A stretch of DNA of 64,000 bases from Anaerolineales bacterium (GCA_046259385.1 JBJYWI010000048.1:464-64463); one strand, 5' to 3'. Positions 4,547 to 22,377 are shown, numbered from the stretch's first letter. The notes: generated by a model not told the origin, from the letters alone. Program-made: numbers and translations.

Positions 4547-4563
4547 AGTTGTCCTTTCTGGAA

Positions 4564-5364: not shown

Positions 5365-5378
5365 ATTTCTACTCTACT

Positions 5379-6527: not shown

Positions 6528-6529
6528 AT

Positions 6530-6877: not shown

Positions 6878-6907
6878 CTCTCCTCCAAAAAAGATGGTGA
6901 TTAATTA

Positions 6908-7279
6908 TTATCCTGCGGGAATTATTAACCCCAGAAATATGATCAAAGTATACCCAAGAATATAAAAACCTGTTAACCCGTAGAGCAGTGTTATTGATAC
7001 GCCAGGCAACCTCAGTTGACCCTGGTATATTTCCAGTGTTTTAATCAAATCTCCAACCAGCATGAAGATTGAAAATAATAGTAGTGCGGCAATTGGAAAT
7101 GGAATAAAAAATAGCGTGAACAGCATCCCCCAGTGACCGATATTATTCATAATTACAAAAGCCATAGAGATAATTTCGCGGCGTTGTGGCCGGTCGAATA
7201 CTGCCAACGACAACCCGAGCGAAAGAAACAGCAGGGTAACGGTCTGTAAAAAGTTCTTCCCCGATGGGATCGAAAACAC
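6908..7279 (-). CDS. Membrane protein, probably 5'-truncated by a homopolymer frameshift (see findings)
   Basis: 123 aa from GTG 7279, all hydrophobic helices. The same frame continues upstream, encoding KIVAIVIIAIIALPNPVETN without any start codon, up to TAA at 7340-7342. Confidence 0.55.
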   Translation of the reverse strand: MFSIPSGKNFLQTVTLLFLSLGLSLAVFDRPQRREIISMAFVIMNNIGHWGMLFTLFFIPFPIAALLLFSIFMLVGDLIKTLEIYQGQLRLPGVSITLLYGLTGFYILGYTLIIFLGLIIPAG

Positions 7280-7538
7280 ATTGGTTTCTACAGGATTTGG
7301 TAAGGCGATAATCGCGATTATTACTATCGCAACTATTTTTTAGGATGGTCTCGAGCCACGCAAGCGCTGACCATTTGGCGATATACCATCCTTTTTTTAA
7401 TTCAACTGATTTAGCATTGTTCATATCTTGGTTTATTATGGGATAACCAGCCTTGCGATCCTTCGATCTTACAGGCTGGCCATCCCTATTTGGGCTCCTG
7501 TTGAGAGATTATCCATTTCAAATCCTAATTTACAGGGA

Positions 7539-8192
7539 TTAATCTAGTGATCCGGTTTTTATATGTGCCATAAACTCTGCCCGCGTTTTATCATTTTCCT
7601 TAAAGCATCCAAGCATTTTACTGGTGACCATCTTGGTGTTATCTTTTTTAACGCCGCGCATCATGGCGCACATATGGGCGCCTTCTACAACTACAGCAAC
7701 ACCCTGAGGGGCGAGGGTCTCCTGGATAAAATTTGCTATCTGGGAGGTCATTTGCTCCTGGATCTGCAGGCGCCTGGCGAACATCTCCACGATTCGTGGG
7801 ATTTTGCTTAAACCGATAACCTTACCGTCCGGAATGTAAGCTACATGCGCCTTTCCGTAAAATGGCAGCATATGGTGCTCGCACATGCTGTAGAAATCGA
7901 TGTCTTTGACCACTACCATTTCGTCGTAATCCACATTAAAAACTGCGCCGTTGATCATTTTCACGGGATCGATTTGATAACCGCTGGTCAGCTCGTGATA
8001 CATTCTGGCTACCCGGTTGGGCGTGTTTAACAGACCCTCCCTTTCCGGGTTTTCGCCAATATTTGAAAGTATGTTGTACACAGCTACTTCAATATTTCCC
8101 TGATTCAGCCAGGTTGGCTGGTTTGAGTTACTACTGAGGCTTTTGTCCAATTCTTCTTCCAGTAAAAGACTATTAGATTTTGTTAAATTCAT
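7539..8192 (-). CDS. folE: GTP cyclohydrolase I
   Basis: 217 aa with the CEHHMLPF zinc/active-site motif and [13 protein letters not shown]. Confidence 0.93.
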
Positions 8193-8231
8193 TTCTACCT
8201 TCCTGTTGATCTATCAATAAAATATTTGTAT

Positions 8232-9068
8232 TTATTTTGCTTTGATACATGAAAAGCCGACCACTCCCGGTCCGATGTTCGCGCCTAATGCCGGGGTAAC
8301 GTCAACTGAAAGAGGTTCTATACCTGGTGGAAAAAGGTCTCTGGATATCTCTTGCAGATGTTCAGCTTTGGAGGGAGCGTTTGTATGGACCAGATCCAGG
8401 CGTTCAAAATTGCCGAGTTCGCGCGCAAGTTGGAGCAATCTGCTGATCGCTCGGCTGTAAGTGCGGACACGCTCACCGGTCGGATCGCCTTCGTGCATTT
8501 TTAAGATGGGTTTAACGCGTAGGATATTACCCAATCTGGCAACAACCCCGCTCATGCGACCGCTGCGCTGCAGGTAATCGAGGGTTTCAAGCGCTGCAAA
8601 AACATAAGTCCTAGAGTTCAACTCGTCCAGACGGGCGATGATATTTTCCATCGTTTCATTTTCCTGGGCAGCTTCCGCAGCTGCTATAACAAGGTAGCCC
8701 ATTCCTAGGCTAAGCTGACGGGAGTCGTATATTGTAACTGGCGCTGTATCAAACTGTTTCGCAGCTGTTCGGGCGACATTCACAGTGGCGCTCAGGCTCT
8801 CAGATATATGTATGGATAAAATTTGATTCGCTCCCTCATCAACTAATTTACTGTATGCCCGCTGGAACATATCCACTCCAGGAGTAGCGGTCGTGGGCAG
8901 GGGGTCAGCGTCAATCATTCGCTCGTAAAATTCTTTGCGTGAAATTTCTACCTGGTCCAGGTAACCTTGATCACCGAAATTAATGAACAAAGGAACGGTT
9001 TCTATTCCAAACTTGTTTATGATTTCTTGCGGTAAATCATTTGTGCTGTCAGCTACAATTCTGATCAT
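8232..9068 (-). CDS. DegV family fatty-acid-binding protein
   Basis: 278 aa. N-terminal IRIVADSTNDLPQE and overall DegV pattern. Confidence 0.85.
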   Translation of the reverse strand: MIRIVADSTNDLPQEIINKFGIETVPLFINFGDQGYLDQVEISRKEFYERMIDADPLPTTATPGVDMFQRAYSKLVDEGANQILSIHISESLSATVNVARTAAKQFDTAPVTIYDSRQLSLGMGYLVIAAAEAAQENETMENIIARLDELNSRTYVFAALETLDYLQRSGRMSGVVARLGNILRVKPILKMHEGDPTGERVRTYSRAISRLLQLARELGNFERLDLVHTNAPSKAEHLQEISRDLFPPGIEPLSVDVTPALGANIGPGVVGFSCIKAK

Positions 9069-9176
9069 CGCTCACTCCTCCTGCGTTTCATTATTTAGGA
9101 ATTATCCTACCATTTTATATTAGTAATTTTGTATATGCCATTTTATTCTGTGGTTAAAAAATAAACCCTTCCTGTG

Positions 9177-9210
9177 GAACCGGGCGGCAGTTATTTCTGC
9201 CACCCGGTTC
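9177..9210 (-). terminator. Stem-loop downstream of the fasciclin gene (candidate intrinsic terminator)
   Basis: GAACCGGGCGGCAG-ttattt-CTGCCACCCGGTTC, 13 of 14 bp paired. On the minus strand a T-rich run (TTTATTTTTT) follows about 11 nt 3' of the stem. Lies between the fasciclin stop (9294) and the degV start (9068). Confidence 0.55.
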
Positions 9211-9293
9211 TGGCGATCCGGAATTATTGTGTGTTTTTGATGTGTTATCCGGGCGCCATCAAATAGGAGGAGAGAAAATGTTTGTATTGCCCC

Positions 9294-10700
9294 TTAGGGT
9301 AGTAATACCGCATCTATCACATGAATTACGCCGTTAGAAGCTTCGATGTCAGGAATGATCACTGCAGAATCGTTTACTTTCAGTATTTCACCGTCCAGGC
9401 TAATCAGAATGTTTTCGCCTGAAAGCATCTCAACTTCCTGTCCTGCGAGTTCGATCGCCTGTGTTGACATCACCTTGCCTTCAAGAACGTGGTATAGAAG
9501 GAGATTTGTGAGCGCTTCTTTATCTGCAATTAATTCATCCAATGCTCCTTCAGGCAGTGCTGCAAAGGCATCATCCGTCGGCGCAAATACGGTGAATGGT
9601 CCTTCCGACTGCAACGCTTCAACCAGTTCTGCCTCTTGTAGAGCGGTCACCAGGGTGGTGAAACGACCATCTTCAACTGCGATCTCGACGATTGTTTTGT
9701 TTTCTTCCATCGCTTCGTCAGCCGGAGGCAGCAGTACTGAGTCAATGACGTGAATAACGCCGTTAGAGGCTTCGATGTCAGGAATGATCACTTTCGATTC
9801 ATTGATCAAAACATTTTCACCATCCAGAGCAACCATAATCTTGTCTCCGGAAAGCGTCTCGACTTCCTGCCCATCGAGATCAATAACATCAGCCGCCATC
9901 ACCTTACCGTCAACGACGTGGTAGAGGAGGACATTTGTAAGAGCTTCTTTGTCCGCCAGAAGCCCTTCCACTGTCCCTTCTGGTAAAGCAGCAAAAGCGT
10001 CATCGGTAGGCGCAAATACAGTGAAAGGTCCTTCAGCCTGCAGTGCTTCAACTAGCTCGGCTTCCTGCAGCGCGGTCACCAAGGTAGTAAATCGGCCGTC
10101 TTCGACTGCGATATCAACGATTGATCTGCTTTCTTCCATCATCTCTTCGCCTTCAATTGGCGGCAGAATAACAGAATCAATCACGTGAATTACACCATTA
10201 GAGCCAACAATGTCAGTTGCGACAACTTTAGCATCGTTGATCATTACATTCTCGCCATCAACGGTAACCTTGAACATCTTACCTGACATAGTTTCGACGT
10301 CCTGACCGTTCAATCCGATTGCATCAGCTGCCAGAACTTCAGCCCCAACTACATGGTAAAGGAGAATATTCTTGAGGGCTTCTGGATCTTCTAGCAAACT
10401 TTCTACAGTTCCTTCAGGAAGGGCTGCAAAAGCTTCATCTGTAGGGGCAAAGACCGTAAAAGGACCGTCTCCCTGCAGGGTCTCAACCAGACCGGCAGCC
10501 TGGAGGGCAGTAACCAGGGTTGAAAAATTACCATCAGCAACTGCAATATCGACAATTGTTGGAGGAGTTTCTTCAACCGGCTCTTCTGTTACCTCTTCAA
10601 CAGGCGGCTCAGTTGGCTCTGGTGTTGGCGCTGCGCCAGCGCAGGCTGCCAGCACTAATGAGACTAAAACGATTATCGAGGGGATTGTATATTTCTTCAC
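9294..10700 (-). CDS. Lipoprotein with three tandem FAS1 (fasciclin) domains
   Basis: Start moved to GTG 10700 (AGGAG 5 nt upstream), giving [20 protein letters not shown] with lipobox LAAC. Each repeat carries [18 protein letters not shown] and [10 protein letters not shown]. Confidence 0.88.
9297..10559 (-). repeat. Three in-frame FAS1 repeat units of about 133 codons (10559-10158, 10121-9723, 9692-9297)
   Basis: Units 2 and 3 are roughly three-quarters identical at protein level by eye (IV[DE][25 protein letters not shown][AS][20 protein letters not shown]). Unit 1 is more diverged. Confidence 0.85.
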
Positions 10701-10748: not shown

Positions 10749-10770
10749 TTGCAAAGGTATTGTACACATT
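10749..10770 (-). promoter_or_regulatory. Two phased 11-bp CarH-type repeats overlapping a TTGCAA -35-like box upstream of the fasciclin gene
   Basis: The minus strand reads AATGTGTACAA TACCTTTGCAA. Both fit nAnnTnn(A/G)CAn. The second differs by 1 nt from the repeat TAACTTTGCAA at 12625. Only two repeats, not three. Confidence 0.3.
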
Positions 10771-10945
10771 TATTTATATTTGTCAAGATTTGGCAAAGGT
10801 TTTTTGGGATTAATCTTTTTTAATCTTTATCCATAAAAAATTTTCTTTAGAGATCTTCGATTGGTAACTAGAAAGAAATTTATGTTTATATTGGCAGTTT
10901 GTTTCCGGTTTTGGGTTTTGTTTTCGTCTTAATCTTAAGCAGATT

Positions 10946-10953
10946 TGTATAAT
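10946..10953 (+). promoter_or_regulatory. Extended -10 element (TGTATAAT) upstream of the (6-4) photolyase-like gene
   Basis: TGTATAAT lies about 105 nt upstream of ATG 11059. No good -35 box. Confidence 0.3.
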
Positions 10954-11058
10954 AGAAAAACTCATTTTCTGGTTTCATCGGATTTCGGCAAAGTAATCAT
11001 TTCTGCCCCTTTTTATTCCTGATTGACGGATCAATCATCTTGGTTTATATATTCTGGG

Positions 11059-12576
11059 ATGACGGTTACAGTTTGGATTCTTGGCGACCAGTTGTGCAAA
11101 AACCATCCGGCGCTCGATTATGCTGTAGAGCAGTACGGCAAAAGCAATATTGTTATTCTGATGCTGGAAAGTGAGAAACGCGCTGGGAGAATTTCTTATC
11201 ACGCAAAAAAACTGGTCTTGCTGTTCAGCGCAATGCGCCATATTGCCGAACATTTGCGAATGCAAGGATTTCGGGTGGATTACCGAATTTCCCCCAGAAC
11301 AGGAGAGGCGATAAATAGCCATCTCAAAGAGTTCCAGCCCGAAGCTGTGATCGCGATGTCAGCTAGCGAGTTTCGCGGTCGAATTTACCAGAAAAACCTG
11401 GAAGATAAATTTGGCATACCTGTAATTCAACTGCCAAATACGCAGTTCTTATCTGGGCGGTTTGACCCATATCCGGATCCCCAGCTAGGAAAGAGATATG
11501 TGCAGGAACAGTTTTACCGCAGAATGCGCCGGAACTTCCAACTGCTGGTCGATGCCGACGGAGAGCCATTTGGAGGAAAGTGGAACTTTGATAAAGACAA
11601 CCGGCGCCGGCTGCCATCGAATCAAAAACCGCCGCGACCGATTGCCTTTTCGCCGGATGGAATTACCATGCAAGTTATGGAAGAAGTTGGGAGGAAGTAT
11701 AGGGTGGTGGGAAATAGCGATGGATTTAATCTTGCCGTTACCCGCGAACAAGCCCGCCAGGCAGCATATGATTTTTTCGATTATCGTTTGCATGATTTTG
11801 GCGCGTACGAGGATGCCATGAGCTGTGAGAATGACATCATTTACCATTCCAAGCTTTCTCCTTATATAAATTTAGGTTTGCTGGACCCTCTCTGGCTAGC
11901 GAGAGAGGCCCAAACGAGGTATAGCGAAGGGATGGCTCCGATCAATTCCGTCGAAGGTTTCATCCGCCAGCTGGTGGGGTGGCGCGAATATATATACTGG
12001 CAGTACTGGCGATTGATGCCAGAAATCTCAGGCAGTAACTTCTGGGGATTTAACCGCGCGCTTCCGGAGTTTTTCTGGAATGGCGAAACTGAAATGAATT
12101 GTTTGAAGCATGTTATCGGAAGAGCTCTACACGACGGCTACACCCACCACATCGAACGCCTGATGGTGGTATGTAATTTTTGTTTGCTCGCGGGAATTGA
12201 CCCGGATACGGTCAACATCTGGTTCCAGAGCGTCTATATTGATGCATATGAGTGGGTTATGTTGCCAAATGTGTATGGAATGGGTCTGTATGCCGATGGG
12301 GGAATGGTGGGGACTAAACCCTATATTTCATCTGCGAATTACCTTAGCAAGATGAGTGATTATTGCCGGGCATGTGTATTTAACCATAAGCACCGTACCG
12401 GTGTAGGTGCCTGTCCTTTCAATTATCTGTACTGGAATTTCATTCTTGAGCATAACCAAATACTCAAGGCTAACCCAAGAATGAGTAGAAGCCTGTTGGG
12501 GTTGAGGCATCTGGATCAAGAAGATAAACGTTTGATTCAAGAAAGCGCGCACCAGTTTCTGAATTCACTTGTTTAG
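11059..12576 (+). CDS. Cryptochrome/photolyase family protein, FeS-BCP / bacterial (6-4) photolyase type (PhrB/CryB-like)
   Basis: Start at the first ATG (M13 of the track ORF, which begins at TTG). Four Cys in the pattern reported for the [4Fe-4S] cluster of PhrB: one in VVCNFCLLAG, then CRAC-x12-C (SDYCRACVFNHKHRTGVGACPF). Confidence 0.8.
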   Translation: MTVTVWILGDQLCKNHPALDYAVEQYGKSNIVILMLESEKRAGRISYHAKKLVLLFSAMRHIAEHLRMQGFRVDYRISPRTGEAINSHLKEFQPEAVIAMSASEFRGRIYQKNLEDKFGIPVIQLPNTQFLSGRFDPYPDPQLGKRYVQEQFYRRMRRNFQLLVDADGEPFGGKWNFDKDNRRRLPSNQKPPRPIAFSPDGITMQVMEEVGRKYRVVGNSDGFNLAVTREQARQAAYDFFDYRLHDFGAYEDAMSCENDIIYHSKLSPYINLGLLDPLWLAREAQTRYSEGMAPINSVEGFIRQLVGWREYIYWQYWRLMPEISGSNFWGFNRALPEFFWNGETEMNCLKHVIGRALHDGYTHHIERLMVVCNFCLLAGIDPDTVNIWFQSVYIDAYEWVMLPNVYGMGLYADGGMVGTKPYISSANYLSKMSDYCRACVFNHKHRTGVGACPFNYLYWNFILEHNQILKANPRMSRSLLGLRHLDQEDKRLIQESAHQFLNSLV

Positions 12577-12624: not shown

Positions 12625-12657
12625 TAACTTTGCAAAACATTGACAAAATATTTACAT
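12625..12657 (+). promoter_or_regulatory. Candidate CarH-type operator O1: three tandem 11-bp direct repeats
   Basis: TAACTTTGCAA / AACATTGACAA / AATATTTACAT at 12625, 12636 and 12647. All three fit nAnnTnn(A/G)CAn in exact 11-bp phase. The middle repeat contains the -35 TTGACA. Confidence 0.6.
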
Positions 12658-12668
12658 TATGATATAAG
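12640..12668 (+). promoter_or_regulatory. Sigma-70-type promoter (TTGACA-17 nt-TGaTATAAG)
   Basis: -35 TTGACA at 12640-12645, 17-nt spacer, TG extension at 12660-12661, -10 TATAAG at 12663-12668. Lies 26 nt upstream of ATG 12695. Confidence 0.55.
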
Positions 12669-12694
12669 ATAAAAAAATATAATGTTTGGATTAA

Positions 12695-13345
12695 ATGGGT
12701 AGATGTATGAAAAAGAATGCATTAATTTTCGGGGCGGCAGGCGCGATAGGGTCAGCAGTTCTTAAAACACTGGATAAAAATAAATGGAAGACCATTGCTG
12801 TCAGTCGTGAAACCAGTCTCATCCAAGATTACGCAGACTATGTATTTGATATATCATTCACAGATGTAAGTCAGATTGCACAAACAGCTTATCTAATCTC
12901 CCAGAAAGTTGAGGGGATTGACCTTTGGGTTTATGCAGCTGGGGATATTCTCTCCGCAAAAATATCCGATATGAGACCTGAAGAATGGGACAGAATTCTG
13001 ATGGCTAATCTCTCGGGAGCATTTTACACACTCCACTTCAGTCTGCCATTGTTAAGTGAAGGCGCTCACATCTTCCTAATTGGCGCGGTTAGTGAAAGAT
13101 TGCGCCTGCCTGGTCTATCCGCTTATGCAGTAGCAAAATCTGGGTTGGAAGCGTTTGCCGGAGTCTTGCGAAAAGAGCAGCGAAAAAAGCTCGTGACAGT
13201 TGTACGTCCCGGGGCTGTCAAGACCACATTTTGGGATAAAGTCCCGATGAAAATCCCACCTGATGCTGCATCACCTGAAAAAGTTGCTCTAAAAATAATT
13301 GCAGCATACCAGGCAGGTCATCAAGGAAACCTTGATCTTGTTTAA
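12695..13345 (+). CDS. Short-chain dehydrogenase/reductase (SDR)
   Basis: 216 aa, GAAGAIGSAV glycine-rich loop, YAVAK catalytic motif. The alternative ATG at 12707 (MKKNALIFG) is equally possible. Confidence 0.8.
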   Translation: MGRCMKKNALIFGAAGAIGSAVLKTLDKNKWKTIAVSRETSLIQDYADYVFDISFTDVSQIAQTAYLISQKVEGIDLWVYAAGDILSAKISDMRPEEWDRILMANLSGAFYTLHFSLPLLSEGAHIFLIGAVSERLRLPGLSAYAVAKSGLEAFAGVLRKEQRKKLVTVVRPGAVKTTFWDKVPMKIPPDAASPEKVALKIIAAYQAGHQGNLDLV

Positions 13346-13414
13346 CCTAAGAACTATTCTTCTTAATATCTTTAGCATCTATTGAAACTCAAATTTTATT
13401 TCTGGAAAACTAAA

Positions 13415-13918
13415 ATGCAAATCACTCAAACTTTTAAAAACATTGAATCCAAATTTGACATCATTGATATTACGATCACAAACTTGATGGCGAAGTACAG
13501 CCTTGTGGTATTGCGGATTAGTATGGGACTAGTTTTTATCTGGTTTGGAGCGCTAAAATTTTTCCCCGGATTAAGTCCTGCAGAAGAGCTAGTTCGAAAC
13601 ACTATATATTTTTTTGACCCCGAATTCGTTCTACCGGTACTTGCTGCATGGGAAGTGACAATCGGTTTAGGATTTTTAACCGGATTATTCACGAACAGGT
13701 TTCAACGCCTAACGATTTTGCTGTTATTTCTACAGATGTTTGGAGTGGCTTTACCCCTGGTGCTACTTCCCGAAGTTTGCTGGAAAAATTTTCCTTTTGT
13801 CTTGACTCTTGAGGGTCAATATATTGTAAAGAACCTTGTGATAATTGGATCCGCCCTGGTTTTAGGCGCAACTGTCCGGGGAGGATGGATTCACCCTGAG
13901 CCCAAAAAGCTTATATAG
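13415..13918 (+). CDS. DoxX-like integral membrane protein
   Basis: Start at ATG (M12 of the track ORF). Four TM helices. [20 protein letters not shown] resembles the DoxX/DUF417 type. Confidence 0.5.
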
Positions 13919-13936
13919 CAGTATTGGAGTTGTTCT

Positions 13937-14509
13937 ATGGCATACATGATCTTGATAGTAGTAATTGGATTGATTGTAATTTTTTCGATTTGGTTATGGC
14001 AGAATTCTCCTGGAAGCAGCGTTTTTGTTGCTACAGAAAAAACTGATCAGTTTCCGGAGGTTTCAGGATATAACCTCGATCGGAAGGAATTTATCTTTCC
14101 CCGGGACTTTGAGGGCGAACACAACTTGATTATGGTTGCCTTCCAACAATACCATCAGAATATTGTGAATACCTGGATACCACATGTGCAGGAATTAGAG
14201 GCAGAAACCCCCGGATTCGTTTATTATGAATTGCCGACAATCAAAGAGATGTCGCTAATAACGCGAACCTTCATTAATGAAGGTATGCGAGCTGGTATCC
14301 CGGACCAGACAGCCAGAGAAAGAACTGTTACTCTCTACATCGATAAAGATAAATTTACTGCCGCTTTGAATATCCCGGATGAAGATGATATATATTTGTT
14401 TCTGGTTGAAGAGGATGGGAGTATCATCTGGCGCGAAAAAGGTGCCTATGATGCAGAAAAAGCCGGCGCTCTTCAAGAGATTTTGCAGGAAAAGCTGAAT
14501 TTAAAATGA
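13937..14509 (+). CDS. Membrane-anchored hypothetical protein (possible cysteine-less thioredoxin-like fold)
   Basis: 190 aa with N-terminal [20 protein letters not shown]. Stop overlaps the next start (ATGA at 14506-14509). Confidence 0.45.
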
Positions 14510-15207
14510 GCACTGAAAATAATGGAAGCTATATTCGTTTGAACAATCTCTGGAAGGAGTTCAATGAAGGAAACCAGAAGCGTGAAGTCCTTCGAGGGAC
14601 TGGATCAGACTTCAAAAAGGGAGAGTTAATCGCAATTCTTGGTAAAAGCGGAAGCGGTAAAAGCACCCTTTTAAACATTATCAGCGGGATCGATATGCCG
14701 GACGAAGGGGATATTACTATCAACGGGTTAACGCTGACCCGTCTCGATGAAAACCGGCGCACTCTATTCCGGCGTGAAAATATTGGATTTATATTCCAAT
14801 TTTTTAACCTTATACCAACTCTTACAGTTGAAGAGAATGTGAGTTTGCCTTTAGAGTTGTTGGGTTCAGATACAAGCCATGCGAAATCTCAAGCTGCCGA
14901 AATATTGGATCGTGTTGGTCTGGTAGATAGACTTAACACATTCCCTGAACGATTGTCTGGCGGTGAACAGCAGCGGGTTGCGATTGCGCGCGCCTTGGTA
15001 CATGATCCCTTGCTTTTGCTGGCTGATGAACCCACAGGCAACCTGGACGAAGAAATTGGCGCGCAAATACTCTCTTTGCTTGACCAGCTTACCCGACAGG
15101 CTGGTAAAAATTTGATTTTGGTCACCCACAATAAAGAAAGTGCTGCATTTGCAGACCGGAAATTCGAACTTATTGGCGGCTGTCTCTATGAGGTAGATTC
15201 AGCTTGA
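14506..15207 (+). CDS. ABC transporter ATP-binding protein (AttE/YbbA/LolD-type)
   Basis: Walker [32 protein letters not shown]. Confidence 0.9.
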
Positions 15208-15229
15208 TACCAGATCCGGTGAACAAACA

Positions 15230-17800
15230 ATGAACAAGATTCCAGCGCTGCAGCCCTCATTGATAAAGATTGGTTGGCGGTACTTGATTCACCATTTCCA
15301 CCAGAGCATATTGATGTTGCTTGGAATTTCATTAGGAGTGGCGATGGTAATTGGTATTGATATTGCCAATCAGAGCGCAAGTCGTGCTTTCGAGTTGAGC
15401 ACCGAAGCCATCACCGGCAGAGCCACCCATCTTATCTCTGGTGGACCAAATGGAATAGCTGAAACTGTGTATTCAGATTTAAAAAAGGGGGGTATTGGAT
15501 TTCCTGCCGCGCCCGTTATCAGCGAATATGTTGTTGCATCCGAATTGGATGGGCAGACATTCCAACTGCTGGGAATTGACCCGTTTGCAGAAACTCCTTT
15601 TCGTGATTATCTGGCTGATCTAGATGGAGTCTCGCATGATTCGCTTATTCCTTTTTTGTCCAGACCCAGCAGCGTTCTGGTATCGCAGAATATAGCAAAT
15701 CGGTACGGACTTTTTCCAGATTCGGAATTTACTGTGGAGTATGCTGGTCGAGTTCACAAACTTGTCATTGCTGGGTTGTTAAGACCTTCTGACAGTCTGA
15801 GCCGACGCGCCCTTGATGGATTGATATTGGCGGATATATCAACCGCACAGGAATTAACCGGAAGGATCGGGCATATTGATAAAATTGACCTTATTCTGGG
15901 GGAAAACAATGCGGAAAATTTTTCCAAACTCGAATATATGCTGCCTTTGGGAGTTCGATTGCTACCTGTGGAATCCAGGAGTGGAACCGTTGAGCAAATA
16001 ACTGCTGCGTTTAAACTTAATCTAACAGCCTTAAGCTTACTTGCTCTTGTGGTGGCGTTGTTTCTGATTTATAACACAATGACATTTTCGGTCGTTCAAC
16101 GCCGGCCGTTATTTGGTACCCTTCGGAGCCTTGGAGTTACCCGGCGTGAGTTGTTCTTAATGGTTGTTTGCGAAGCCCTGGTAATAGGTTTATTGGGCGC
16201 TGGACTCGGTGTTGCCGCAGGTATTTTATTTGGCAGGGGCGCGGTCAATCTTGTGTCCCAAACAATTAATGATCTCTTTTTTGTTAGCACAGTCAGGTCG
16301 GTCCCGGTTGAAATTAGCAGCCTGCTAAAAGGGGCTGTTCTGGGAACACTGGCGACAGTTGCCACTGCTGCGTTTCCAGCCTGGGAAGCAGCCAGTGTAA
16401 CGCCGCGTGCTGCCCTATCCCGCGCTAATCTTGAATCAAAGGCGGAAAAAGTTGTGCGTATCCTGGGTGTGATTGGCGTCCTGGTAATACTAATTGGAGC
16501 GGGTGTGCTGTCCATCTCTCAAAATAGCCTTATTTTTAGCTTTTTGGGAACTTTTATAACAGTTATTGGCTTTGCTTTGATCACTCCCATTTTTACAGGC
16601 TGGATAATGTGGTTAGCTGTTCGATTCACAAGCAGGATGTGGGGTGTACTGGGACGTATGGCTCCCCGTGAAGTAGTAAATTCAATCAGCCGGACATCTG
16701 TAGCGGTTGCCGCCCTGATGATGGCAATTGCGGTTACGGTTGGTTTCAGCCTTATGGTGAGCAGTTTTCGTTTTACAGTTGAAACCTGGATGAGCCAGAT
16801 ACTGCATGGTGATATTTATATCTCTGTTCCTGGAGCGACAGCAAGCCAACCTCTTTATCAGATCGATCCCGAAGTACTTGCTGCTCTTAAGAATTTTTCT
16901 GGAATTGCACGGGTAGATCTTCTTCAGACAGCTGTTGTTAATTCTCCTGATGGACCTATTCAACTTTCCGCCAACAATAACCCGAATGATGGCCTGGAGC
17001 AGGTTTACTTTTCTACAGACTATCCAGCAGATGAGATCTGGAAGGCTGTAGAGAATGGGTCTGTGCTGGTTTCAGAGCCGCTAGCAAACCGGTTAGAATT
17101 GCCAAAGACCGATGGTACTTTATCTCTATACACCAATGATGGCTTGAGGAATTTTCCAATTGCCGGGATTTATTATGATTACGGTTCGAGTCAGGGGAAT
17201 GTGATTTTATCGCTGGAGAATTATAGAAATCTCTGGCAAGATGATCGTATCGCTGCCGCTGCTTTGATACTTGAGCCAGGTGCGGATGTGGAATCAATAA
17301 TTGAGAATTTAAAAATTCAACTAGCCCCAATTCAATCACTGCTTATCCGATCAAACCGAGATTTACGAGAAGAGACTTTGAAGATTTTCGACCGGACTTT
17401 CACAATTGTTAGCGCGTTACAACTGTTAACGGCATCGGTGGCTTTTATCGGGATTATGAGCGCGATGATGTCTCTTCAACTGGATAAACAGCGCCAGCTG
17501 GGCATTCTGAAAGCAATAGGATTAACCGGGGGTCAACTGTGGCGGTTGGTAACTTTAGAAGCGGGTCTAATGGGTACAGTAGCTGGGTTGCTTTCTATGC
17601 CTGCCGGTATCATGCTGGCAATCATACTGGTATATATAATAAACCGGCGTTCTTTTGGCTGGACTTTAAAGCTGCAACTTGAACCTGAACCTTTTGTACT
17701 GGCATTGCTAATTGGGATGGCAGCAGCGGTACTGGCTGGGCTGTACCCTGCATATCGAATTATGCATCGTAATACATCAGAAGCGATCCGATATGAGTAA
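15230..17800 (+). CDS. ABC transporter permease with duplicated FtsX domains (AttF/G-, YbbP-like)
   Basis: 856 aa. Two FtsX-type TM bundles, each preceded by a soluble domain. Confidence 0.82.
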   Translation: MNKIPALQPSLIKIGWRYLIHHFHQSILMLLGISLGVAMVIGIDIANQSASRAFELSTEAITGRATHLISGGPNGIAETVYSDLKKGGIGFPAAPVISEYVVASELDGQTFQLLGIDPFAETPFRDYLADLDGVSHDSLIPFLSRPSSVLVSQNIANRYGLFPDSEFTVEYAGRVHKLVIAGLLRPSDSLSRRALDGLILADISTAQELTGRIGHIDKIDLILGENNAENFSKLEYMLPLGVRLLPVESRSGTVEQITAAFKLNLTALSLLALVVALFLIYNTMTFSVVQRRPLFGTLRSLGVTRRELFLMVVCEALVIGLLGAGLGVAAGILFGRGAVNLVSQTINDLFFVSTVRSVPVEISSLLKGAVLGTLATVATAAFPAWEAASVTPRAALSRANLESKAEKVVRILGVIGVLVILIGAGVLSISQNSLIFSFLGTFITVIGFALITPIFTGWIMWLAVRFTSRMWGVLGRMAPREVVNSISRTSVAVAALMMAIAVTVGFSLMVSSFRFTVETWMSQILHGDIYISVPGATASQPLYQIDPEVLAALKNFSGIARVDLLQTAVVNSPDGPIQLSANNNPNDGLEQVYFSTDYPADEIWKAVENGSVLVSEPLANRLELPKTDGTLSLYTNDGLRNFPIAGIYYDYGSSQGNVILSLENYRNLWQDDRIAAAALILEPGADVESIIENLKIQLAPIQSLLIRSNRDLREETLKIFDRTFTIVSALQLLTASVAFIGIMSAMMSLQLDKQRQLGILKAIGLTGGQLWRLVTLEAGLMGTVAGLLSMPAGIMLAIILVYIINRRSFGWTLKLQLEPEPFVLALLIGMAAAVLAGLYPAYRIMHRNTSEAIRYE

Positions 17801-18959
17801 AAATGGGAATTCGGCTGGGATTGTTTTTATAATATTAATCACGCTCGCTGTTGTTTTGGGCGTGGCGGGCTTACGCCCGCTCGGGGCAAGCCAGGGCATT
17901 CCTGTAATTTTAACAAATTTTGATCCTCCAACTGGCTTCACCCGTGCTGAGGGCTATCGTGAATGGAATTTTCCCGAAGATTATGGACCCCACCTGGATT
18001 TCCAGACTGAATGGTGGTATTACACAGGCAATCTTCAAAGTAAAACTGGAGAACAGTTCGGATACCAGTTGACTTTTTTCAGGAGGGCGCTGCTTCCTAT
18101 TGAAGACCTCCCAGAACGCCAATCCGCATGGGCTGCAAACCAGATTTTTATGGCTCATTTTGCGATAACTGATGTTGAAGCCGGCGCGCATCACGATTTT
18201 GAAAGGTTTGCTCGCGGTGCAGCAGGATTGGCTGGTTCAGAAAACAAATTATTTCGAATATGGTTGGAAAACTGGCGGGTAGAACAGGTGGACGACCAGA
18301 GATTTACACTTCTAGCTTCCCAGGATGATATCAAACTGGATTTGTTTTTCGACAATCTCAAAGGTGTGATTTTTCATGGAGAGCAGGGTTACAGCCAAAA
18401 AGGGCCCGAACCAGGAAATGCCTCTTACTATTACAGCCAGACACGACTGGATACTTCTGGAACAATACAAATCGCCGAAGATGTATACCGTGTAAGCGGG
18501 TTGAGCTGGATGGATCATGAGTTCAGCACCAGCGCGCTCTCTGCCGGTCAGGTCGGTTGGGATTGGTTTTCAATACAGTTAGACGAAGGAAGTGAATTGA
18601 TGGTTTTTCAAATCCGCCGCGCAGATGGAAGTATCGATCTTTATTCAAGCGGCACCTGGATTGCTAAAGATGGGAAGACTCGACAACTCTCGAATGAACA
18701 GTTTGAAATAAAGGTAATAGATACCTGGCGCAGCCCAAATTCCGGGGCAGAATATCCTTCGGAATGGCTGCTGGTAGTGCCTGATCTTGAATTGCAGCTC
18801 GAGATAAAACCCTTGGTTGCAGACCAGGAAATGGATGTTTCATATGCCTACTGGGAAGGAGCGGTAAAAATTGAAGGTAACCAAAGTGATGCGCGAGTTT
18901 CAGGAATTGGTTATGTTGAGTTGACAGGATATGCGGAATCAATTGAAGGACAATTCTAG
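17793..18959 (+). CDS. Lipocalin-like CrtC/AttH family protein (carotenoid 1,2-hydratase superfamily)
   Basis: Start at M28 of the track ORF (ATG overlaps the permease stop; MSKNGNSAGIVFIILITLAVVLG signal/anchor). Motifs EWWYYTGNL, YYYSQTRL, SWMDHEF, GWDWFSIQL. Confidence 0.75.
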   Translation: MSKNGNSAGIVFIILITLAVVLGVAGLRPLGASQGIPVILTNFDPPTGFTRAEGYREWNFPEDYGPHLDFQTEWWYYTGNLQSKTGEQFGYQLTFFRRALLPIEDLPERQSAWAANQIFMAHFAITDVEAGAHHDFERFARGAAGLAGSENKLFRIWLENWRVEQVDDQRFTLLASQDDIKLDLFFDNLKGVIFHGEQGYSQKGPEPGNASYYYSQTRLDTSGTIQIAEDVYRVSGLSWMDHEFSTSALSAGQVGWDWFSIQLDEGSELMVFQIRRADGSIDLYSSGTWIAKDGKTRQLSNEQFEIKVIDTWRSPNSGAEYPSEWLLVVPDLELQLEIKPLVADQEMDVSYAYWEGAVKIEGNQSDARVSGIGYVELTGYAESIEGQF

Positions 18960-20421
18960 GGCGTTATCAGTTGAGAAAATCCTGGTCACGGGTGCCACCG
19001 GTTATATTGGCGGCAGGCTGGCGCCTGTCTTGCTTGATAAGGGTTACCATGTTCGGGTTATGGTTAGAGACCCTGCTCGTTTGCAGGGCCGGTCATGGGC
19101 TGACTTGGTAGACATAAAGAAGGGTGATGTACTAAAGCCGGGTACACTTCCGAAGGCGATGGAGGGGGTCGATACGGCGTATTATCTGATTCACAGCATG
19201 AGCGGAAGCGGGAATTTTCACGAACGCGACTTAATTGCGGCAGGTAATTTCGGATCAGCCGCGAAATCATCCGGGATTAAGCGAATTATTTACCTGGGAG
19301 GATTAGGTAATCCGGATGAAAATCTTTCGGAACACCTGAAATCGAGGCAGGAAACCGGGGCTGCGCTGGCGGAAGGCGGGGTTCCTGTGACTGAGTTCAG
19401 GGCGGCGATTATTGTTGGGTCCGGGAGTATATCATTTGAGATGATCCGCTACCTGACCGAGAGATTACCGGTCATGATCTGTCCGCGCTGGGTGTATACA
19501 CGTGTACAACCTATCGCGATCTCTGATCTGCTGGATTATCTTACTGCTGCCCTGGAAAATGAAGAAAGTATCGGCAGGATAGTTGAGGTTGGCGGTGTTG
19601 AGGTGATGACCTACGGAGATATGATGCTGGGATACGCACGCGAACGCGGCTTGAAGCGCTACCTGATCCCGGTGCCTGTCTTAACGCCCAGGCTGTCATC
19701 ATACTGGGTGCACTGGATGACACCTGTTCCATCAGACATTACCCGACCGCTGGTGGAAGGGCTGAAGAATGAGGTGATTGTTCATGACTTCAGCGCAGAA
19801 GAACTCTTTCCTGAAATTAAGCCGGTTGATTATGCTAGCGCTGTCAGGTCTGCTCTGGAAAACTTGGATTTAGGTGAGGTAGAAACCCGCTGGACAGACG
19901 CAATATCTTCCAGCTTAGGGGATCAGGATCCGGTGGTGATGAAAACCCAGGAAGGTATGATCATTGAACAACGGAAGATAAGGATAAATGCATCTCCAGA
20001 GCAAGTGTACACAGTATTTTCCCGCCTGGGAGGGGAAGCAGGCTGGTTGTATTTTGATTGGGCTTGGGAAATCCGGGGCATTATCGACCGTGTGTTCGGC
20101 GGGGTTGGTTTGCGTCGCGGCAGACGCGATCCTGTGGATATCCGGGTCGGTGATGCGGTTGATTTCTGGCGGGTTGAAACACTTGACCCGGGACGATTAA
20201 TATCACTTCGGGCTGAAATGAGACTGCCCGGAGAAGCCTGGCTGCAGTTTGAAGTCAAAAAAGATCAAGATGGCAGTTCTCGTCTTACGCAGACAGCCTT
20301 CTTTGCGCCAAAAGGTTTATTGGGTTTTTTATACTGGTACGGTTTGTATCCCATCCACAGGTTGATCTTCTCTGGGTTAATTCGCAAACTTAAACTAGTC
20401 TCAGAAATCGAAGAAGAATGA
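18931..20421 (+). CDS. NAD(P)H-binding SDR (NmrA-like) fused to a DUF2867-like C-terminal domain
   Basis: ILVTGATGYIGG Rossmann motif. C-terminal LISLRAEMRLPGEAWLQFEV resembles DUF2867. The start overlaps the previous gene by 29 nt and is uncertain. Confidence 0.7.
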   Translation: MRNQLKDNSRALSVEKILVTGATGYIGGRLAPVLLDKGYHVRVMVRDPARLQGRSWADLVDIKKGDVLKPGTLPKAMEGVDTAYYLIHSMSGSGNFHERDLIAAGNFGSAAKSSGIKRIIYLGGLGNPDENLSEHLKSRQETGAALAEGGVPVTEFRAAIIVGSGSISFEMIRYLTERLPVMICPRWVYTRVQPIAISDLLDYLTAALENEESIGRIVEVGGVEVMTYGDMMLGYARERGLKRYLIPVPVLTPRLSSYWVHWMTPVPSDITRPLVEGLKNEVIVHDFSAEELFPEIKPVDYASAVRSALENLDLGEVETRWTDAISSSLGDQDPVVMKTQEGMIIEQRKIRINASPEQVYTVFSRLGGEAGWLYFDWAWEIRGIIDRVFGGVGLRRGRRDPVDIRVGDAVDFWRVETLDPGRLISLRAEMRLPGEAWLQFEVKKDQDGSSRLTQTAFFAPKGLLGFLYWYGLYPIHRLIFSGLIRKLKLVSEIEEE

Positions 20422-20956: not shown

Positions 20957-20989
20957 AATTTGCGCAAAAAATGTGCAAATACTTGACAA
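20957..20989 (+). promoter_or_regulatory. Candidate CarH-type operator O2: three tandem 11-bp direct repeats upstream of the carH-like gene
   Basis: AATTTGCGCAA / AAAATGTGCAA / ATACTTGACAA at 20957, 20968 and 20979, in exact 11-bp phase. Fit nAnnTnn(A/G)CAn, with one deviation at position 2 of repeat 3. Repeat 3 contains the -35 TTGACA. Confidence 0.6.
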
Positions 20990-21060: not shown

Positions 21061-22377
21061 GTGGCAGAGATCAGTATTATTCCGACTTACAACTTAAAAG
21101 TGGTATTGAAGGAGACCGGGATAAAAGCGGACACATTACGGGCATGGGAACGCCGTTACGGTTTACCCCACCCTGACCGTACGGACGGCGGGCACCGTCT
21201 TTATTCGCAGTACGACATCAAGACCATTAGGTGGTTGCAGGCTCGTATTGATGAGGGACTCCGCATAAACCGGGCGGTCAAATTATGGCGCGGTATAGAA
21301 GAGTCTGGTCGGGACCCATTGCTAGAAATGCCTTTAGTGGATGCAGTTCGAGAACCCCAGCCATTTCCGGCTGTTTTGGGAGCATCAATCGTTGATCTAC
21401 GTAATCATTGGGTTGAAGCCTGTATGGATTTCAATGAAAGACAAGCGGAATACATCCTCGCACAGGCTTTTGCGAGTTATTCTGTTGAAGTAGTCTGTCT
21501 CGATATTATGGGAGCGGGTATATCTGAAATTGGAAAGCGCTGGTATCAGGGTAAAAGTACTGTGCAGCAGGAACATTTCGCTTCATCTCTGATTGTCAGG
21601 CGTTTAAATACTCTGATCTCAGCTGCTCCAGCGCCTACAAGAAGCGAGTGTGTTCTGGTTGCCTGCCCGCCACAGGAAGACCACATCATTTCCCCACTAA
21701 TGGTTACTTTGTTCCTGCGAAGAAGGGGGTTGAATGTTATTTATCTAGGAGCGAATGTCCCAATTGAGCGATTGGATAATGCGATCGAATCATCTGAATC
21801 CGATTTGGTTATTATGATCGCTCAGCAGTTATTCACCGCTGCGAATCTGCTTGAAGCAGCCCGTTTTATGGAAGAAAAGAACATGGCTTTTGGATTTGGG
21901 GGATTAGTATTTACTCTACTCCCTGAACTCAAGCAGAAAATTCCAGGCCATTATCTGGGCGATAAGCTGGATAGTGCGGTCAGTGTAATTGAGGATATTT
22001 TATTACGCCATCCATCTATCGATTCAAGTATCTCAGTGCCTGATAAATACTTAAAATCATGGAAGAAATTTACTGATCAGCAACCCCAAATAGAGGCGCA
22101 CCTGCGGGGAGTAATACAAAGAAATGGGATGCATGAAAGCCATCTCGAAATTGCCAACGAATACCTTGGACTTGATATAAGCGCTGCGCTGAGTCTTGGG
22201 GATATGGGACTGCTTAGCGAAGAGATCAACTGGGTGAAATTCCTACTCAAGAATTACGCGGTGCCTGTGGAACGGTTGCATGAGTACTTAGCACATTTCG
22301 GTAAAGCGATAGAGTTATATATGGAAGATGACGGAAAACCGATCCTGGAATGGTTAGACAGTGTGGAAGTGAGCTGA
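21061..22377 (+). CDS. MerR-family, cobalamin-binding light-responsive regulator (CarH/LitR-like) with about 130-aa C-terminal extension
   Basis: GTG start with AAAGGTGA SD. N-terminal MerR HTH (YNLKVVLKETGIKADTLRAWERRYGLPHP). Wx9EH motif (RWYQGKSTVQQEHF). B12 lower-ligand motif ExH in VLVACPPQEDHIISPLMV, followed by a Rossmann-type B12 domain. 438 aa versus about 290-300 aa for characterised CarH proteins (recollection). Confidence 0.8.
   Translation: MAEISIIPTYNLKVVLKETGIKADTLRAWERRYGLPHPDRTDGGHRLYSQYDIKTIRWLQARIDEGLRINRAVKLWRGIEESGRDPLLEMPLVDAVREPQPFPAVLGASIVDLRNHWVEACMDFNERQAEYILAQAFASYSVEVVCLDIMGAGISEIGKRWYQGKSTVQQEHFASSLIVRRLNTLISAAPAPTRSECVLVACPPQEDHIISPLMVTLFLRRRGLNVIYLGANVPIERLDNAIESSESDLVIMIAQQLFTAANLLEAARFMEEKNMAFGFGGLVFTLLPELKQKIPGHYLGDKLDSAVSVIEDILLRHPSIDSSISVPDKYLKSWKKFTDQQPQIEAHLRGVIQRNGMHESHLEIANEYLGLDISAALSLGDMGLLSEEINWVKFLLKNYAVPVERLHEYLAHFGKAIELYMEDDGKPILEWLDSVEVS

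What the first reader, a model, noticed from the sequence alone, without database searches (positions are those of the whole stretch)
12625..12668. Second CarH-type triple repeat (operator O1) on a near-consensus extended -10 promoter, 8 kb from the regulator gene
TAACTTTGCAA, AACATTGACAA and AATATTTACAT (12625, 12636, 12647) all satisfy nAnnTnn(A/G)CAn without exception. They sit on TTGACA-17 nt-TGaTATAAG. Under uniform base composition the degenerate 11-mer has a per-position probability near 1/512, so three in exact tandem are expected about 0.001 times in this window on both strands. Two such sites, both on -35 boxes heading long arrays, are unlikely to arise by chance. My scan of the other larger intergenic regions found only isolated single matches.
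Basis: seen in the sequence. Interest (0 to 1): 0.75.

Follow-up and report, generated by a model that had tools for sequence, protein, structure and literature searches.

The report
Predicted light-switch operator on a promoter
Three tandem 11-base repeats covering a strong promoter are very probably the docking site of a vitamin-B12 light-sensing repressor encoded 8 kb away, so a seven-gene operon would be switched on by light in an uncultured Anaerolineae bacterium; the mechanism is a known kind, but the regulator carries an extra bilin-type globin domain whose DNA targets had not been described.

Summary
TAACTTTGCAA / AACATTGACAA / AATATTTACAT (12625-12657, +) all fit nAnnTnnRCAn and overlap TTGACA-17 nt-TGaTATAAG. 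This triple is unique in the window (0 of 100 shuffles) and occurs only twice in 1.83 Mb of related DNA.

A weight matrix was trained only on regions upstream of carH-like genes from about 80 distant Chloroflexota genomes. It ranks this site first in the window: 32.0 bits, against a maximum of 21.5 in 200 random windows.

The site is conserved upstream of the orthologous SDR gene in relatives, while the flanking DNA diverges. SDR orthologues retrieved by protein similarity alone often carry the same tandem repeats on their -35 box.

The regulator (21061-22377) has a CarH-like DNA-binding domain, the Wx9EH motif and the ExH B12 motif. It also has a C-terminal phycobiliprotein-like globin domain, as photocobilins do.

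Best reading: a dark-state, B12-dependent repressor site relieved by light. It controls an SDR-DoxX-ABC exporter-AttH lipocalin operon.

Across the family the conserved unit is two strong repeats plus a weak third. Binding itself is untested.

The parts
12625..12635 (+). Repeat 1 of operator O1, TAACTTTGCAA (TnnGCA variant), immediately upstream of the -35 box
   Evidence: PWM score 9.9 bits. The ACTTTnCAAA core is invariant in five orthologous intergenic regions.
12636..12646 (+). Repeat 2 of O1, AACATTGACAA. It contains the -35 hexamer TTGACA (12640-12645).
   Evidence: PWM score 12.6 bits. Invariant TTGACAAAA in orthologues. Family-wide, the -35 box lies inside one of the two strong repeats in 86 of 117 sites.
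12647..12657 (+). Repeat 3 of O1, AATATTTACAT, within the promoter spacer
   Evidence: PWM score 9.6 bits. In orthologues this position is a degenerate pseudo-repeat (AAAnTGGATAT, AATATTTATAT).
12660..12668 (+). Extended -10 element TG-a-TATAAG, 17 nt after TTGACA
   Evidence: TGATAT is invariant in five orthologues. Not called by the consensus scanner because the last base is G.
12707..20421 (+). Operon headed by O1. Genes in order: SDR oxidoreductase (ORF from 12695, probable ATG 12707, to 13345); DoxX-like membrane protein (13382-13918); unknown 190 aa (13937-14509); LolD/MacB-type ABC ATPase (14506-15207); duplicated FtsX/MacB permease (15230-17800); CrtC/AttH-type lipocalin (about 17800-18959); NAD(P)-binding + DUF2867 protein (about 18931-20421).
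   Evidence: ORFs. Pfam. NCBIfam. Same gene order in L001 and L002. Start of the SDR gene from alignment A2.
21061..22377 (+). Regulator gene: MerR winged helix + B12-binding four-helix bundle (W161-x9-E171-H172) + Rossmann B12 domain (E206-D-H208) + C-terminal globin-like domain (residues about 303-437)
   Evidence: invariant residues; best PDB sequence hits 3WHP and TtCarH 5C8D-F.
20957..20989 (+). Operator O2 on the regulator's own promoter: AATTTGCGCAA AAAATGTGCAA ATACTTGACAA. The -35 TTGACA (20983-20988) lies in the third repeat.
   Evidence: (26.3 bits). Conserved in L001, L002, L004 and L005.
10749..10801 (-). Third operator (O3) on the fasciclin-gene promoter. Layout: weak repeat AACCTTTGCCA (10801-10791); AATCTTGACAA (10790-10780, contains the -35); 9-nt gap; AATGTGTACAA (10770-10760, overlaps the -10 TACAAT); TACCTTTGCAA (10759-10749).
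   Evidence: (TTGACA-16-TACAAT, 11/12). Same layout in the closest relative, L086. The fasciclin gene probably starts at GTG 10700 after AGGAG.

Best explanation
O1 is an operator for the CarH-like, B12-dependent photoreceptor-repressor encoded at 21061-22377.

Proposed mechanism: in the dark, the adenosylcobalamin-loaded regulator oligomerises. It places one winged-helix domain on each 11-bp direct repeat, on one face of the DNA. This covers the -35 box (repeat 2) and the spacer (repeat 3) of the SDR-operon promoter, so RNA polymerase cannot bind. Light cleaves the Co-C bond, the oligomer falls apart, the operator is vacated and the seven-gene operon is transcribed.

The same regulator would act on its own promoter (O2) and on the fasciclin/DegV/FolE promoter (O3). 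Together these would form a three-promoter light regulon that also includes two photolyase-family genes, AhpC and a Stay-Green Mg-dechelatase homologue.

Shown here: the sequence, its statistical rarity, its conservation, its recurrence before the same gene families, and the regulator's domains and motifs.

Inferred, not shown: DNA binding, B12 dependence, oligomeric state, the direction of regulation and the light response.
For: - Rarity: the exact triple is unique in the window, with 0/100 shuffles matching. It occurs 2 times in 1.83 Mb.
- Independent matrix: a PWM trained on carH-upstream regions of about 80 distant genomes has the consensus [A/T][A/T]nnT[G/T][G/T]ACAA. It scores O1 at 32.0 bits, the best in the window. 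The random maximum has mean 10.1 and highest value 21.5 over 200 windows.
- Pairs versus singles: tandem pairs occur at only three places in the window, all promoters, against 0.22 expected. Single repeats are no more frequent than chance.
- Unseeded periodicity: there is an 11-bp periodicity of RCAA upstream of carH homologues.
- Location of hits: in 1.8 Mb of loci, 71 of 75 sites of at least 20 bits lie within 300 bp upstream of a correctly oriented ORF. The downstream genes are CarH 21, SDR 14, CrtD-like FAD oxidase 6, DoxX 3 and the unknown 190-aa protein 2, plus others. O1 ranks 4th overall.
- Conserved footprint: repeats 1-2 and TGATAT are conserved while the flanks diverge.
- Regulator: the segment LRaWERRYGlPhPdRTdGGHRLYS matches T. 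thermophilus LitR/CarH almost residue for residue. W161, E171, H172, E206 and H208 are invariant in 29 homologues.
- Literature: CarH operators are tandem 11-bp repeats nnnnTnnACAn. [quoted passage not shown] They overlap the -35 or -10, and pseudo-repeats are tolerated (PMC9304148).
- Regulon content resembles known bacterial light regulons, which include photolyase, CryB-like protein and FolE (PMC9758184).
Against: - No experiment exists, and the organism is an uncultured MAG.
- The PWM was seeded with the CarH consensus, although the spacing test was not.
- Part of the conservation must come from the promoter itself (-35, extended -10).
- The third repeat is not conserved as a full match in orthologues. 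Family-wide, 106 of 117 sites have only two strong repeats, so the 'triple' may overstate the functional unit.
- The regulator differs from characterised CarH proteins. It has an extra globin-like domain and Tyr instead of the His next to the Trp. It scores 135.7 bits against NCBIfam's CarH cut-off of 400.
- Some related genomes hold two paralogues (L006/L034, L009/L065), so another paralogue elsewhere in this genome could be the binder.
Confidence: 0.8

Rival explanations
1. The repeats are an operator, but for a different LitR/CarH-family paralogue, or another regulator encoded outside the window, rather than for the protein at 21061-22377.
For: Some related MAGs carry two homologues on separate contigs (L006 and L034 of one MAG; L009 and L065 of another). 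Only 64 kb of this genome is visible.
Against: The same repeat type sits on the promoter of this regulator's own gene, here and in dozens of genomes. The SDR operon is syntenic with this regulator in the closest relatives. No second MerR/B12 gene is present in the window.
Confidence: 0.1
2. The conserved block is only a strong promoter (UP-like A/T tract, -35, extended -10). The resemblance to CarH repeats is incidental and no repressor binds.
For: TTGACA itself matches TnnACA, so any consensus -35 box yields one 'repeat'. Single repeats are as common as chance in the window. The best-conserved columns include the -35 and TGATAT.
Against: Repeat 1 lies upstream of the -35 box, is conserved, and has the same RCAA ending in exact 11-bp register. 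Tandem pairs occur only at three promoters of one gene neighbourhood, against 0.22 expected. In other genomes the same repeats overlap the -10 or lie downstream of it. The 11-bp spacing peak is specific to carH-upstream DNA.
Confidence: 0.06
3. The regulator binds here but activates transcription, as classical MerR proteins do, or responds to a signal other than light or B12.
For: The DNA-binding domain belongs to the MerR superfamily. The extra globin-like domain could change the signalling logic.
Against: MerR-type activation needs an over-long 19-20 bp spacer and an inverted repeat (general knowledge of the MerR family, not a tool result). Here the spacer is 17 bp, the promoter elements are near consensus, and the repeats are direct, with no significant inverted repeat. 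The Wx9EH and ExH AdoCbl motifs are invariant. All characterised CarH proteins repress (PMC9304148).
Confidence: 0.03
4. Chance occurrence in A/T-rich intergenic DNA.
For: The intergenic region is A/T-rich, which raises the per-site probability somewhat.
Against: 0/100 shuffles match. The expectation is 0.0014 per window, and there are only 2 exact triples in 1.83 Mb. The score is 32 bits against a random maximum of 21.5. The site is conserved in orthologues.
Confidence: 0.01

Closest known systems
Thermus thermophilus CarH (LitR) and its operator (PDB 5C8E); class I LitR/CarH AdoCbl photoreceptor-repressors
   Same: - Three tandem 11-bp direct repeats of the nnnnTnnACAn type, one of which contains the -35 box (PMC9304148).
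- MerR-type winged helix with near-identical recognition-helix and wing sequence.
- Four-helix bundle with Wx9EH and a Rossmann domain with the lower-axial His.
- Autoregulation plus control of neighbouring photoprotection genes.
   Different: - The regulator here is 438 aa and has an additional C-terminal globin-like domain.
- Tyr, not His, follows the Trp, so the bis-His light state of TtCarH is unlikely (PMC8156234).
- It scores far below the NCBIfam CarH cut-off.
- The target operon encodes an SDR, DoxX, an ABC exporter and an AttH-type lipocalin rather than carotenoid synthesis enzymes.
- The phylum is Chloroflexota.
Myxobacterial and Bacillus megaterium CarH operators (3-5 repeats, mixtures of full repeats 'DR' and pseudo-repeats 'dr')
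   Same: The operator architecture is plastic. Full repeats are flanked by pseudo-repeats and overlap the -35 or the -10. Several operators occur per genome (PMC9304148). Here O1 is DR(G)-DR-DR, O2 is dr-DR(G)-DR, and O3 is dr-DR, a gap, then DR-DR(G).
   Different: In this Anaerolineae family the dominant unit is two strong repeats: 106 of 117 sites, and no run of four. This resembles the two-repeat footprint of a Cystobacter CarH dimer more than the four-repeat B. megaterium site. O3 has an out-of-register 9-nt gap that is conserved in the closest relative.
Photocobilins (B12-binding domain + photoglobin; PDB 8J2W, 8J2X, 8J2Y) and the photoglobin family
   Same: - The model of residues about 110-438 superposes on photocobilins, with TM-score 0.79-0.85 normalised to the target over about 335-345 columns.
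- The C-terminal domain on its own hits only phycobiliprotein-type globins, including biliverdin-bound smURFP.
- The MerR-HTH + B12 + photoglobin architecture was catalogued computationally, including in Chloroflexi (PMC8717448).
   Different: - Characterised photocobilins are stand-alone or fused to a diguanylate cyclase, not to a DNA-binding domain (PMC10979010).
- Sequence similarity of the globin part is not significant (E = 1.8).
- The family has LG[R/K/Q/L]D where photoglobins have CxQD. The Asp is invariant and the Cys is absent (PMC10151467).
- Bilin binding is untested, and no heme oxygenase gene was seen in the window.
Class II LitR light regulon of Pseudomonas putida / P. mendocina
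   Same: The content of the light-induced gene set is similar: photolyase, cryptochrome-like DPRP/CryB, FolE (GTP cyclohydrolase I) and unknown membrane proteins (PMC9758184).
   Different: Those regulators lack a functional B12 domain. They depend on a LOV partner and recognise an inverted-type site (TGTACA-N12-GGTATA), not tandem 11-bp direct repeats (PMC9758184).

Membership tests
CarH-type operator | Two or more tandem 11-bp direct repeats with T at position 5 and ACA at positions 8-10 (nnnnTnnACAn); pseudo-repeats tolerated | tested here: met
   Repeats 2 and 3 are exact matches. Repeat 1 has TnnGCA. Definition taken from PMC9304148.
CarH-type operator | Overlap with the -35 and/or -10 element of the regulated promoter | tested here: met
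   TTGACA lies inside repeat 2, and repeat 3 fills the spacer. The same arrangement occurs in 86 of 117 family sites.
CarH-type operator | Recurs in front of the regulator's own gene and of co-localised light-response genes across genomes | tested here: met
   Downstream genes: CarH 21, SDR 14, FAD oxidase 6, DoxX 3, and others.
CarH-type operator | Bound by the AdoCbl-loaded regulator in the dark and released in the light | not testable with these tools
   Needs EMSA or footprinting with purified protein.
CarH / class I LitR photoreceptor | N-terminal MerR-type winged-helix DNA-binding domain similar to CarH | tested here: met
   Pfam MerR_1/MerR. The best PDB sequence hits are 3WHP and 5C8D-F, and the recognition helix and wing are nearly identical.
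CarH / class I LitR photoreceptor | Wx9EH motif in the four-helix bundle and the lower-axial His (E/DxH) in the Rossmann domain | tested here: met
   W161-x9-E171-H172 and E206-D-H208. All are invariant in 29 homologues.
CarH / class I LitR photoreceptor | Two-module architecture of about 280-300 aa (DNA-binding domain + B12-binding domain only) | tested here: not met
   The protein is 438 aa with an extra, confidently modelled helical domain at residues 303-437. About 440 aa is the rule in this clade.
CarH / class I LitR photoreceptor | Reaches the curated NCBIfam CarH equivalog score | tested here: not met
   NF052513 scores 135.7 bits against a cut-off of 400.
CarH / class I LitR photoreceptor | His next to the Trp of Wx9EH, which forms the bis-His light state in TtCarH | tested here: not met
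   The residue after W161 is Tyr, and this is nearly invariant. The feature is described in PMC8156234.
CarH / class I LitR photoreceptor | AdoCbl-dependent oligomerisation (tetramer or dimer) in the dark | not testable with these tools
   Only single-chain modelling is available.
Photocobilin / photoglobin | B12-binding domain followed by a globin-like helical domain packed against it | tested here: met
   Foldseek TM(target) is 0.79-0.85 to 8J2W, 8J2X and 8J2Y over both domains. For the isolated domain, all of the top 50 hits are phycobiliproteins or smURFP, with TM 0.5-0.62 and E = 0.03-0.4.
Photocobilin / photoglobin | Bilin-pocket motif (CxQD in photoglobins; key Asp in SasPcob) | tested here: inconclusive
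   The family has LG[R/K/Q/L]D with an invariant Asp and no Cys. The window protein has LGLD. The profile-to-PDB sequence match to 8J2Y is only E = 1.8. Motif taken from PMC10151467 and PMC10979010.
Photocobilin / photoglobin | Binds biliverdin together with AdoCbl | not testable with these tools
   Needs reconstitution and spectroscopy.

The most novel reading that the evidence does not exclude
The regulator is a DNA-binding photocobilin: a MerR-type repressor that senses light through both adenosylcobalamin and a bilin held in its C-terminal globin domain, which would extend its sensitivity towards red light. Because the globin domain covers the face that CarH uses for tetramerisation, it would bind as dimers to pairs of 11-bp repeats. 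O1, O2 and O3 would then be the first operators described for this class. They would define a non-carotenoid photoprotection regulon in non-phototrophic Anaerolineae: an ABC exporter with an AttH-type lipocalin, photolyases, FolE and a Stay-Green Mg-dechelatase.
Probability: 0.3. Interest if true: 0.7.

Novelty: new member of a known kind. Interest (0 to 1): 0.45.

Why it matters
CarH-type light switches have been characterised in only a handful of bacteria (Thermus, Bacillus, Myxococcales, Streptomyces), where they almost always control carotenoid genes.

This site and its two companions give a concrete, testable operator set for a large, unstudied clade of Anaerolineae regulators. These regulators combine a CarH-like core with a phycobiliprotein-like globin domain. 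That architecture has so far been known only from sequence catalogues and from non-DNA-binding photocobilins.

If binding is confirmed, three things follow:
- It would show what such dual-domain photoreceptors regulate.
- It would place a bacterial Stay-Green Mg-dechelatase homologue in a light-response context.
- It would provide new parts (operator plus regulator) for optogenetic gene control.

If the globin domain turns out to be inert, the finding is simply one more well-supported CarH operator in a new phylum.

Tried and rejected
- A genome-collection scan with the single regulator protein found no relative. The alignment-based scan was needed.
- The generic repeat finder reports no direct repeats at O1, because only 5-7 of 11 positions are shared. 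It reports only a weak inverted repeat, which I disregard.
- The consensus promoter scanner does not call the O1 promoter, because the -10 ends in G. It does call the O2 and O3 promoters.
- No intrinsic terminator is predicted between the DPRP gene and O1, so some read-through from upstream cannot be excluded.
- Rfam found no riboswitch or other RNA near the site. In particular there is no cobalamin riboswitch in the window.
- Folding of the predicted 5' leader is unremarkable (z = -1.8).
- The sequence-profile search of the C-terminal domain against PDB sequences was not significant. The globin assignment rests on structure comparison only.
- Single-repeat counts carry no information: about 32 observed against 40 expected per window.
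- The Jost et al. 2015 structure paper was not held, so individual DNA-contact residues could not be checked against the primary source.
- One tblastn used a DPRP query that started one base out of frame. Its DPRP rows are ignored, and the fasciclin rows are unaffected.
- A scan of 36-52 kb of the window found only housekeeping genes and an ECF sigma factor with no evident link.

Full report
**Observation**

The window reads TAACTTTGCAA AACATTGACAA AATATTTACAT at 12625-12657 on the + strand. TTGACA is at 12640-12645, followed by a 17-nt spacer, TG at 12660-12661 and TATAAG at 12663-12668.

All three 11-mers fit nAnnTnn(A/G)CAn. The triple pattern is unique in the window on both strands and was never reached in 100 dinucleotide-preserving shuffles. 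From the window's base composition the expected number is 0.0014. In 1.83 Mb of window plus related loci it occurs only twice.

The -10 hexamer ends in G, so the consensus scanner does not call this promoter.

**Gene context**

Upstream lies a DPRP (cryptochrome/6-4-photolyase-like) gene at 11023-12576.

Downstream, on the same strand and tightly packed, are seven genes:
- an SDR oxidoreductase, with probable start at 12707 by alignment;
- a DoxX-like membrane protein;
- an unknown 190-aa protein;
- a LolD/MacB-type ABC ATPase;
- an 856-aa duplicated FtsX permease;
- a CrtC/AttH-type lipocalin;
- an NAD(P)-binding/DUF2867 protein.

At 21061-22377 is a MerR + B12-binding_2 + B12-binding protein. 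It heads an array of an epimerase, an unknown 147-aa protein, a CrtD/carotenoid-isomerase-like FAD oxidase, Ldh/Mdh, a CPD photolyase, AhpC, a Stay-Green homologue and an SDR.

On the minus strand, a fasciclin gene is followed by DegV, GTP cyclohydrolase I (FolE), DUF1475, an ABC/FtsX pair and DUF3159.

**The regulator**

It carries W161-x9-E171-H172 and E206-D-H208. All of these are invariant in 29 homologues.

Its best sequence matches among solved structures are T. thermophilus LitR/CarH (3WHP, 5C8D-F). The recognition-helix and wing segment is almost identical.

It is, however, 438 aa long. Its homologues, all about 440 aa, come from Chloroflexota MAGs: Anaerolineales, Ardenticatenaceae, Promineifilaceae, Caldilineaceae and Thermoflexales. 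An identical protein is on a contig of NCBI assembly GCA_046259895.1.

The AlphaFold model (pLDDT 86.5) has an extra helical domain at residues 303-437. The whole model superposes on photocobilins 8J2W, 8J2X and 8J2Y with target-normalised TM-scores of 0.79-0.85. The isolated domain hits only phycobiliprotein-type globins, including biliverdin-bound smURFP.

Photocobilins bind AdoCbl plus biliverdin (PMC10979010). The MerR-HTH + B12 + photoglobin architecture has been listed computationally but not studied (PMC8717448).

Sequence evidence for the globin domain is weak (E = 1.8). The family has LG[R/K/Q/L]D where photoglobins have CxQD (PMC10151467). The NCBIfam CarH model scores 135.7 bits against a cut-off of 400.

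The regulator is therefore CarH-like in its DNA-binding and B12 modules, but it is not a canonical CarH.

**Is the repeat type really linked to this regulator family?**

Two tests address this.

The first test is a trained matrix. I trained it only on the 260 nt upstream of carH-like genes in about 80 distant loci, leaving out the window and its two closest relatives. The consensus is [A/T][A/T]nnT[G/T][G/T]ACAA. This contains the published CarH repeat nnnnTnnACAn (PMC9304148).

The second test uses no seed. The spacing between RCAA words upstream of those genes has a sharp peak at exactly 11 bp: 47 cases, against roughly 0-8 at other short spacings. The rest of the loci show only codon periodicity.

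Results of scanning with the matrix:
- In the window, O1 scores 32.0 bits (rank 1) and O2 scores 26.3 bits. A minus-strand site at the fasciclin promoter comes third. The best triple in 200 random windows averages 10.1 bits and never exceeds 21.5.
- Tandem pairs occur only at these three promoters, against 0.22 expected. Single repeats are at chance level.
- In 1.8 Mb of loci there are 75 non-redundant sites of at least 20 bits. Of these, 71 lie within 300 bp upstream of a correctly oriented ORF: CarH 21, SDR 14, CrtD-like oxidase 6, DoxX 3, the 190-aa unknown 2, DegV, Stay-Green and others.

**Conservation of O1 itself**

Two relatives, with regulators 69% and 56% identical, have the same gene order. 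At the same place they have:
- AAACTTTACAA ATACTTGACAA AAAACGTGCAA cATGATATAG
- AAACTTTACAA AATCTTGACAA AATATTTATAT tATGATATGA

.

In a five-way alignment of the intergenic regions, the invariant columns are concentrated in repeats 1-2 and TGATAT, and the flanks have diverged.

SDR orthologues fetched from metagenomes by protein similarity alone (40-74% identity) carry tandem repeats on TTGACA, followed by an extended -10. About 20 of about 70 such loci do so. Most of the rest have coding sequence upstream, and in several of these it is a fasciclin gene.

In orthologues the third repeat is a conserved but degenerate pseudo-repeat, such as AAAnTGGATAT.

Family-wide, 106 of 117 sites have two strong repeats, 11 have three and none has four. 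The -35 box lies in the first or second strong repeat in 86 of them. The full triple in this window is therefore the exception. The conserved unit is a pair plus a weak third.

**Mechanism**

By analogy with characterised CarH proteins (PMC9304148, PMC8156234), the AdoCbl-loaded regulator would occupy the repeats in the dark and occlude the -35 box and the spacer. Photolysis would dissolve the oligomer and free the promoter.

Several features argue for repression rather than MerR-type activation: the 17-bp spacer, the near-consensus promoter elements, the direct rather than inverted repeats and the invariant AdoCbl motifs.

Whether the protein acts as a tetramer, as in Thermus, or as dimers on repeat pairs, as in Cystobacter, cannot be decided. 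The predominance of pairs and the added globin domain make the dimer mode plausible.

**The third operator**

On the minus strand the fasciclin promoter is TTGACA-16-TACAAT, an 11/12 match. It carries AACCTTTGCCA and AATCTTGACAA, then a 9-nt gap, then AATGTGTACAA and TACCTTTGCAA.

The closest relative has the same layout with the same 9-nt gap and one more repeat.

In more distant genomes the DegV-FolE-DUF1475-DUF3159 cluster is divergent from carH and has its own repeats.

**Comparison and novelty**

O1 fulfils the sequence and position criteria of a CarH operator, and it is in the same class as the T. thermophilus three-repeat site. As an operator it is a new member of a known kind, in a phylum where none has been described. 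My library searches found no paper on CarH operators in Chloroflexi.

The less ordinary aspects are:
- the regulator's photocobilin-like architecture;
- the two-repeat core architecture across the clade;
- the target genes, which are an SDR/DoxX/ABC-exporter/lipocalin module rather than carotenoid enzymes.

**Limits**

Everything beyond sequence, statistics, conservation and modelled structure is inference. Only 64 kb of the genome is visible, so paralogues, B12 supply and bilin supply are unknown.

Noticed in passing
window 21061-22377 (residues about 303-437 of the product): The CarH-like regulator has an extra C-terminal helical domain. With the B12 domain it superposes on photocobilins (8J2W, 8J2X, 8J2Y; TM 0.79-0.85). 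On its own it hits only phycobiliprotein-type globins, including biliverdin-bound smURFP. The roughly 440-aa architecture is the rule in this Anaerolineae clade.
   Followed up: yes
window 10749-10801, minus strand: A third candidate operator lies on the fasciclin promoter: two repeats over the -35, a 9-nt out-of-register gap, then two repeats over the -10 and the start site. The closest relative (L086 about 2140-2210) has the same layout with the same gap.
   Followed up: yes
window 28434-28907; L005 16420-16452: A Stay-Green (Mg-dechelatase) homologue sits in the regulator's operon. In L005 a 27.8-bit triple repeat lies directly upstream of the Stay-Green gene. Anaerolineae SGR homologues are active Mg-dechelatases in vitro (PMC8531759, PMC11006732). 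The context suggests light-induced handling of chlorophyll-type photosensitisers in a non-phototroph.
   Followed up: partly
window 3657-10700, minus strand: Fasciclin, DegV, FolE (GTP cyclohydrolase I), an unknown protein, DUF1475, FtsX/ABC and DUF3159 form a co-directional array behind the third operator. DegV, DUF1475 and DUF3159 recur next to carH in many Anaerolineae loci; FolE was found with them only in L005. FolE is also light-induced in Pseudomonas (PMC9758184).
   Followed up: partly
all loci: Across the clade the operator core is two strong tandem repeats (106 of 117 sites). Only 11 sites are triples and none is a quadruple. This differs from the three- and four-repeat sites of Thermus and Bacillus CarH.
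   Followed up: yes
window 12678-12683: A perfect TATAAT lies 10 nt downstream of the TATAAG -10, without a matching -35. A similar second -10-like box is present in L001. It may be a secondary start site.
   Followed up: no
window 20430-20950; L001 8358-9520; L002 7880-9819: Between the DUF2867 gene and carH, relatives carry a 154-aa gene (weak PNPOx hit) and repeated pairs of tiny minus-strand ORFs (about 58 aa plus 33 aa). The window seems to retain only remnants in its 640-nt gap.
   Followed up: no
window 10940-10953: The DPRP (CryB-like) gene has its own extended -10 (TGTATAAT) but no detectable repeat site. It may not be under the same repressor, even though it sits between two operators.
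   Followed up: partly
window 48511-49104: An ECF-type sigma factor gene lies about 36 kb from the site. No link to the light regulon was found.
   Followed up: no
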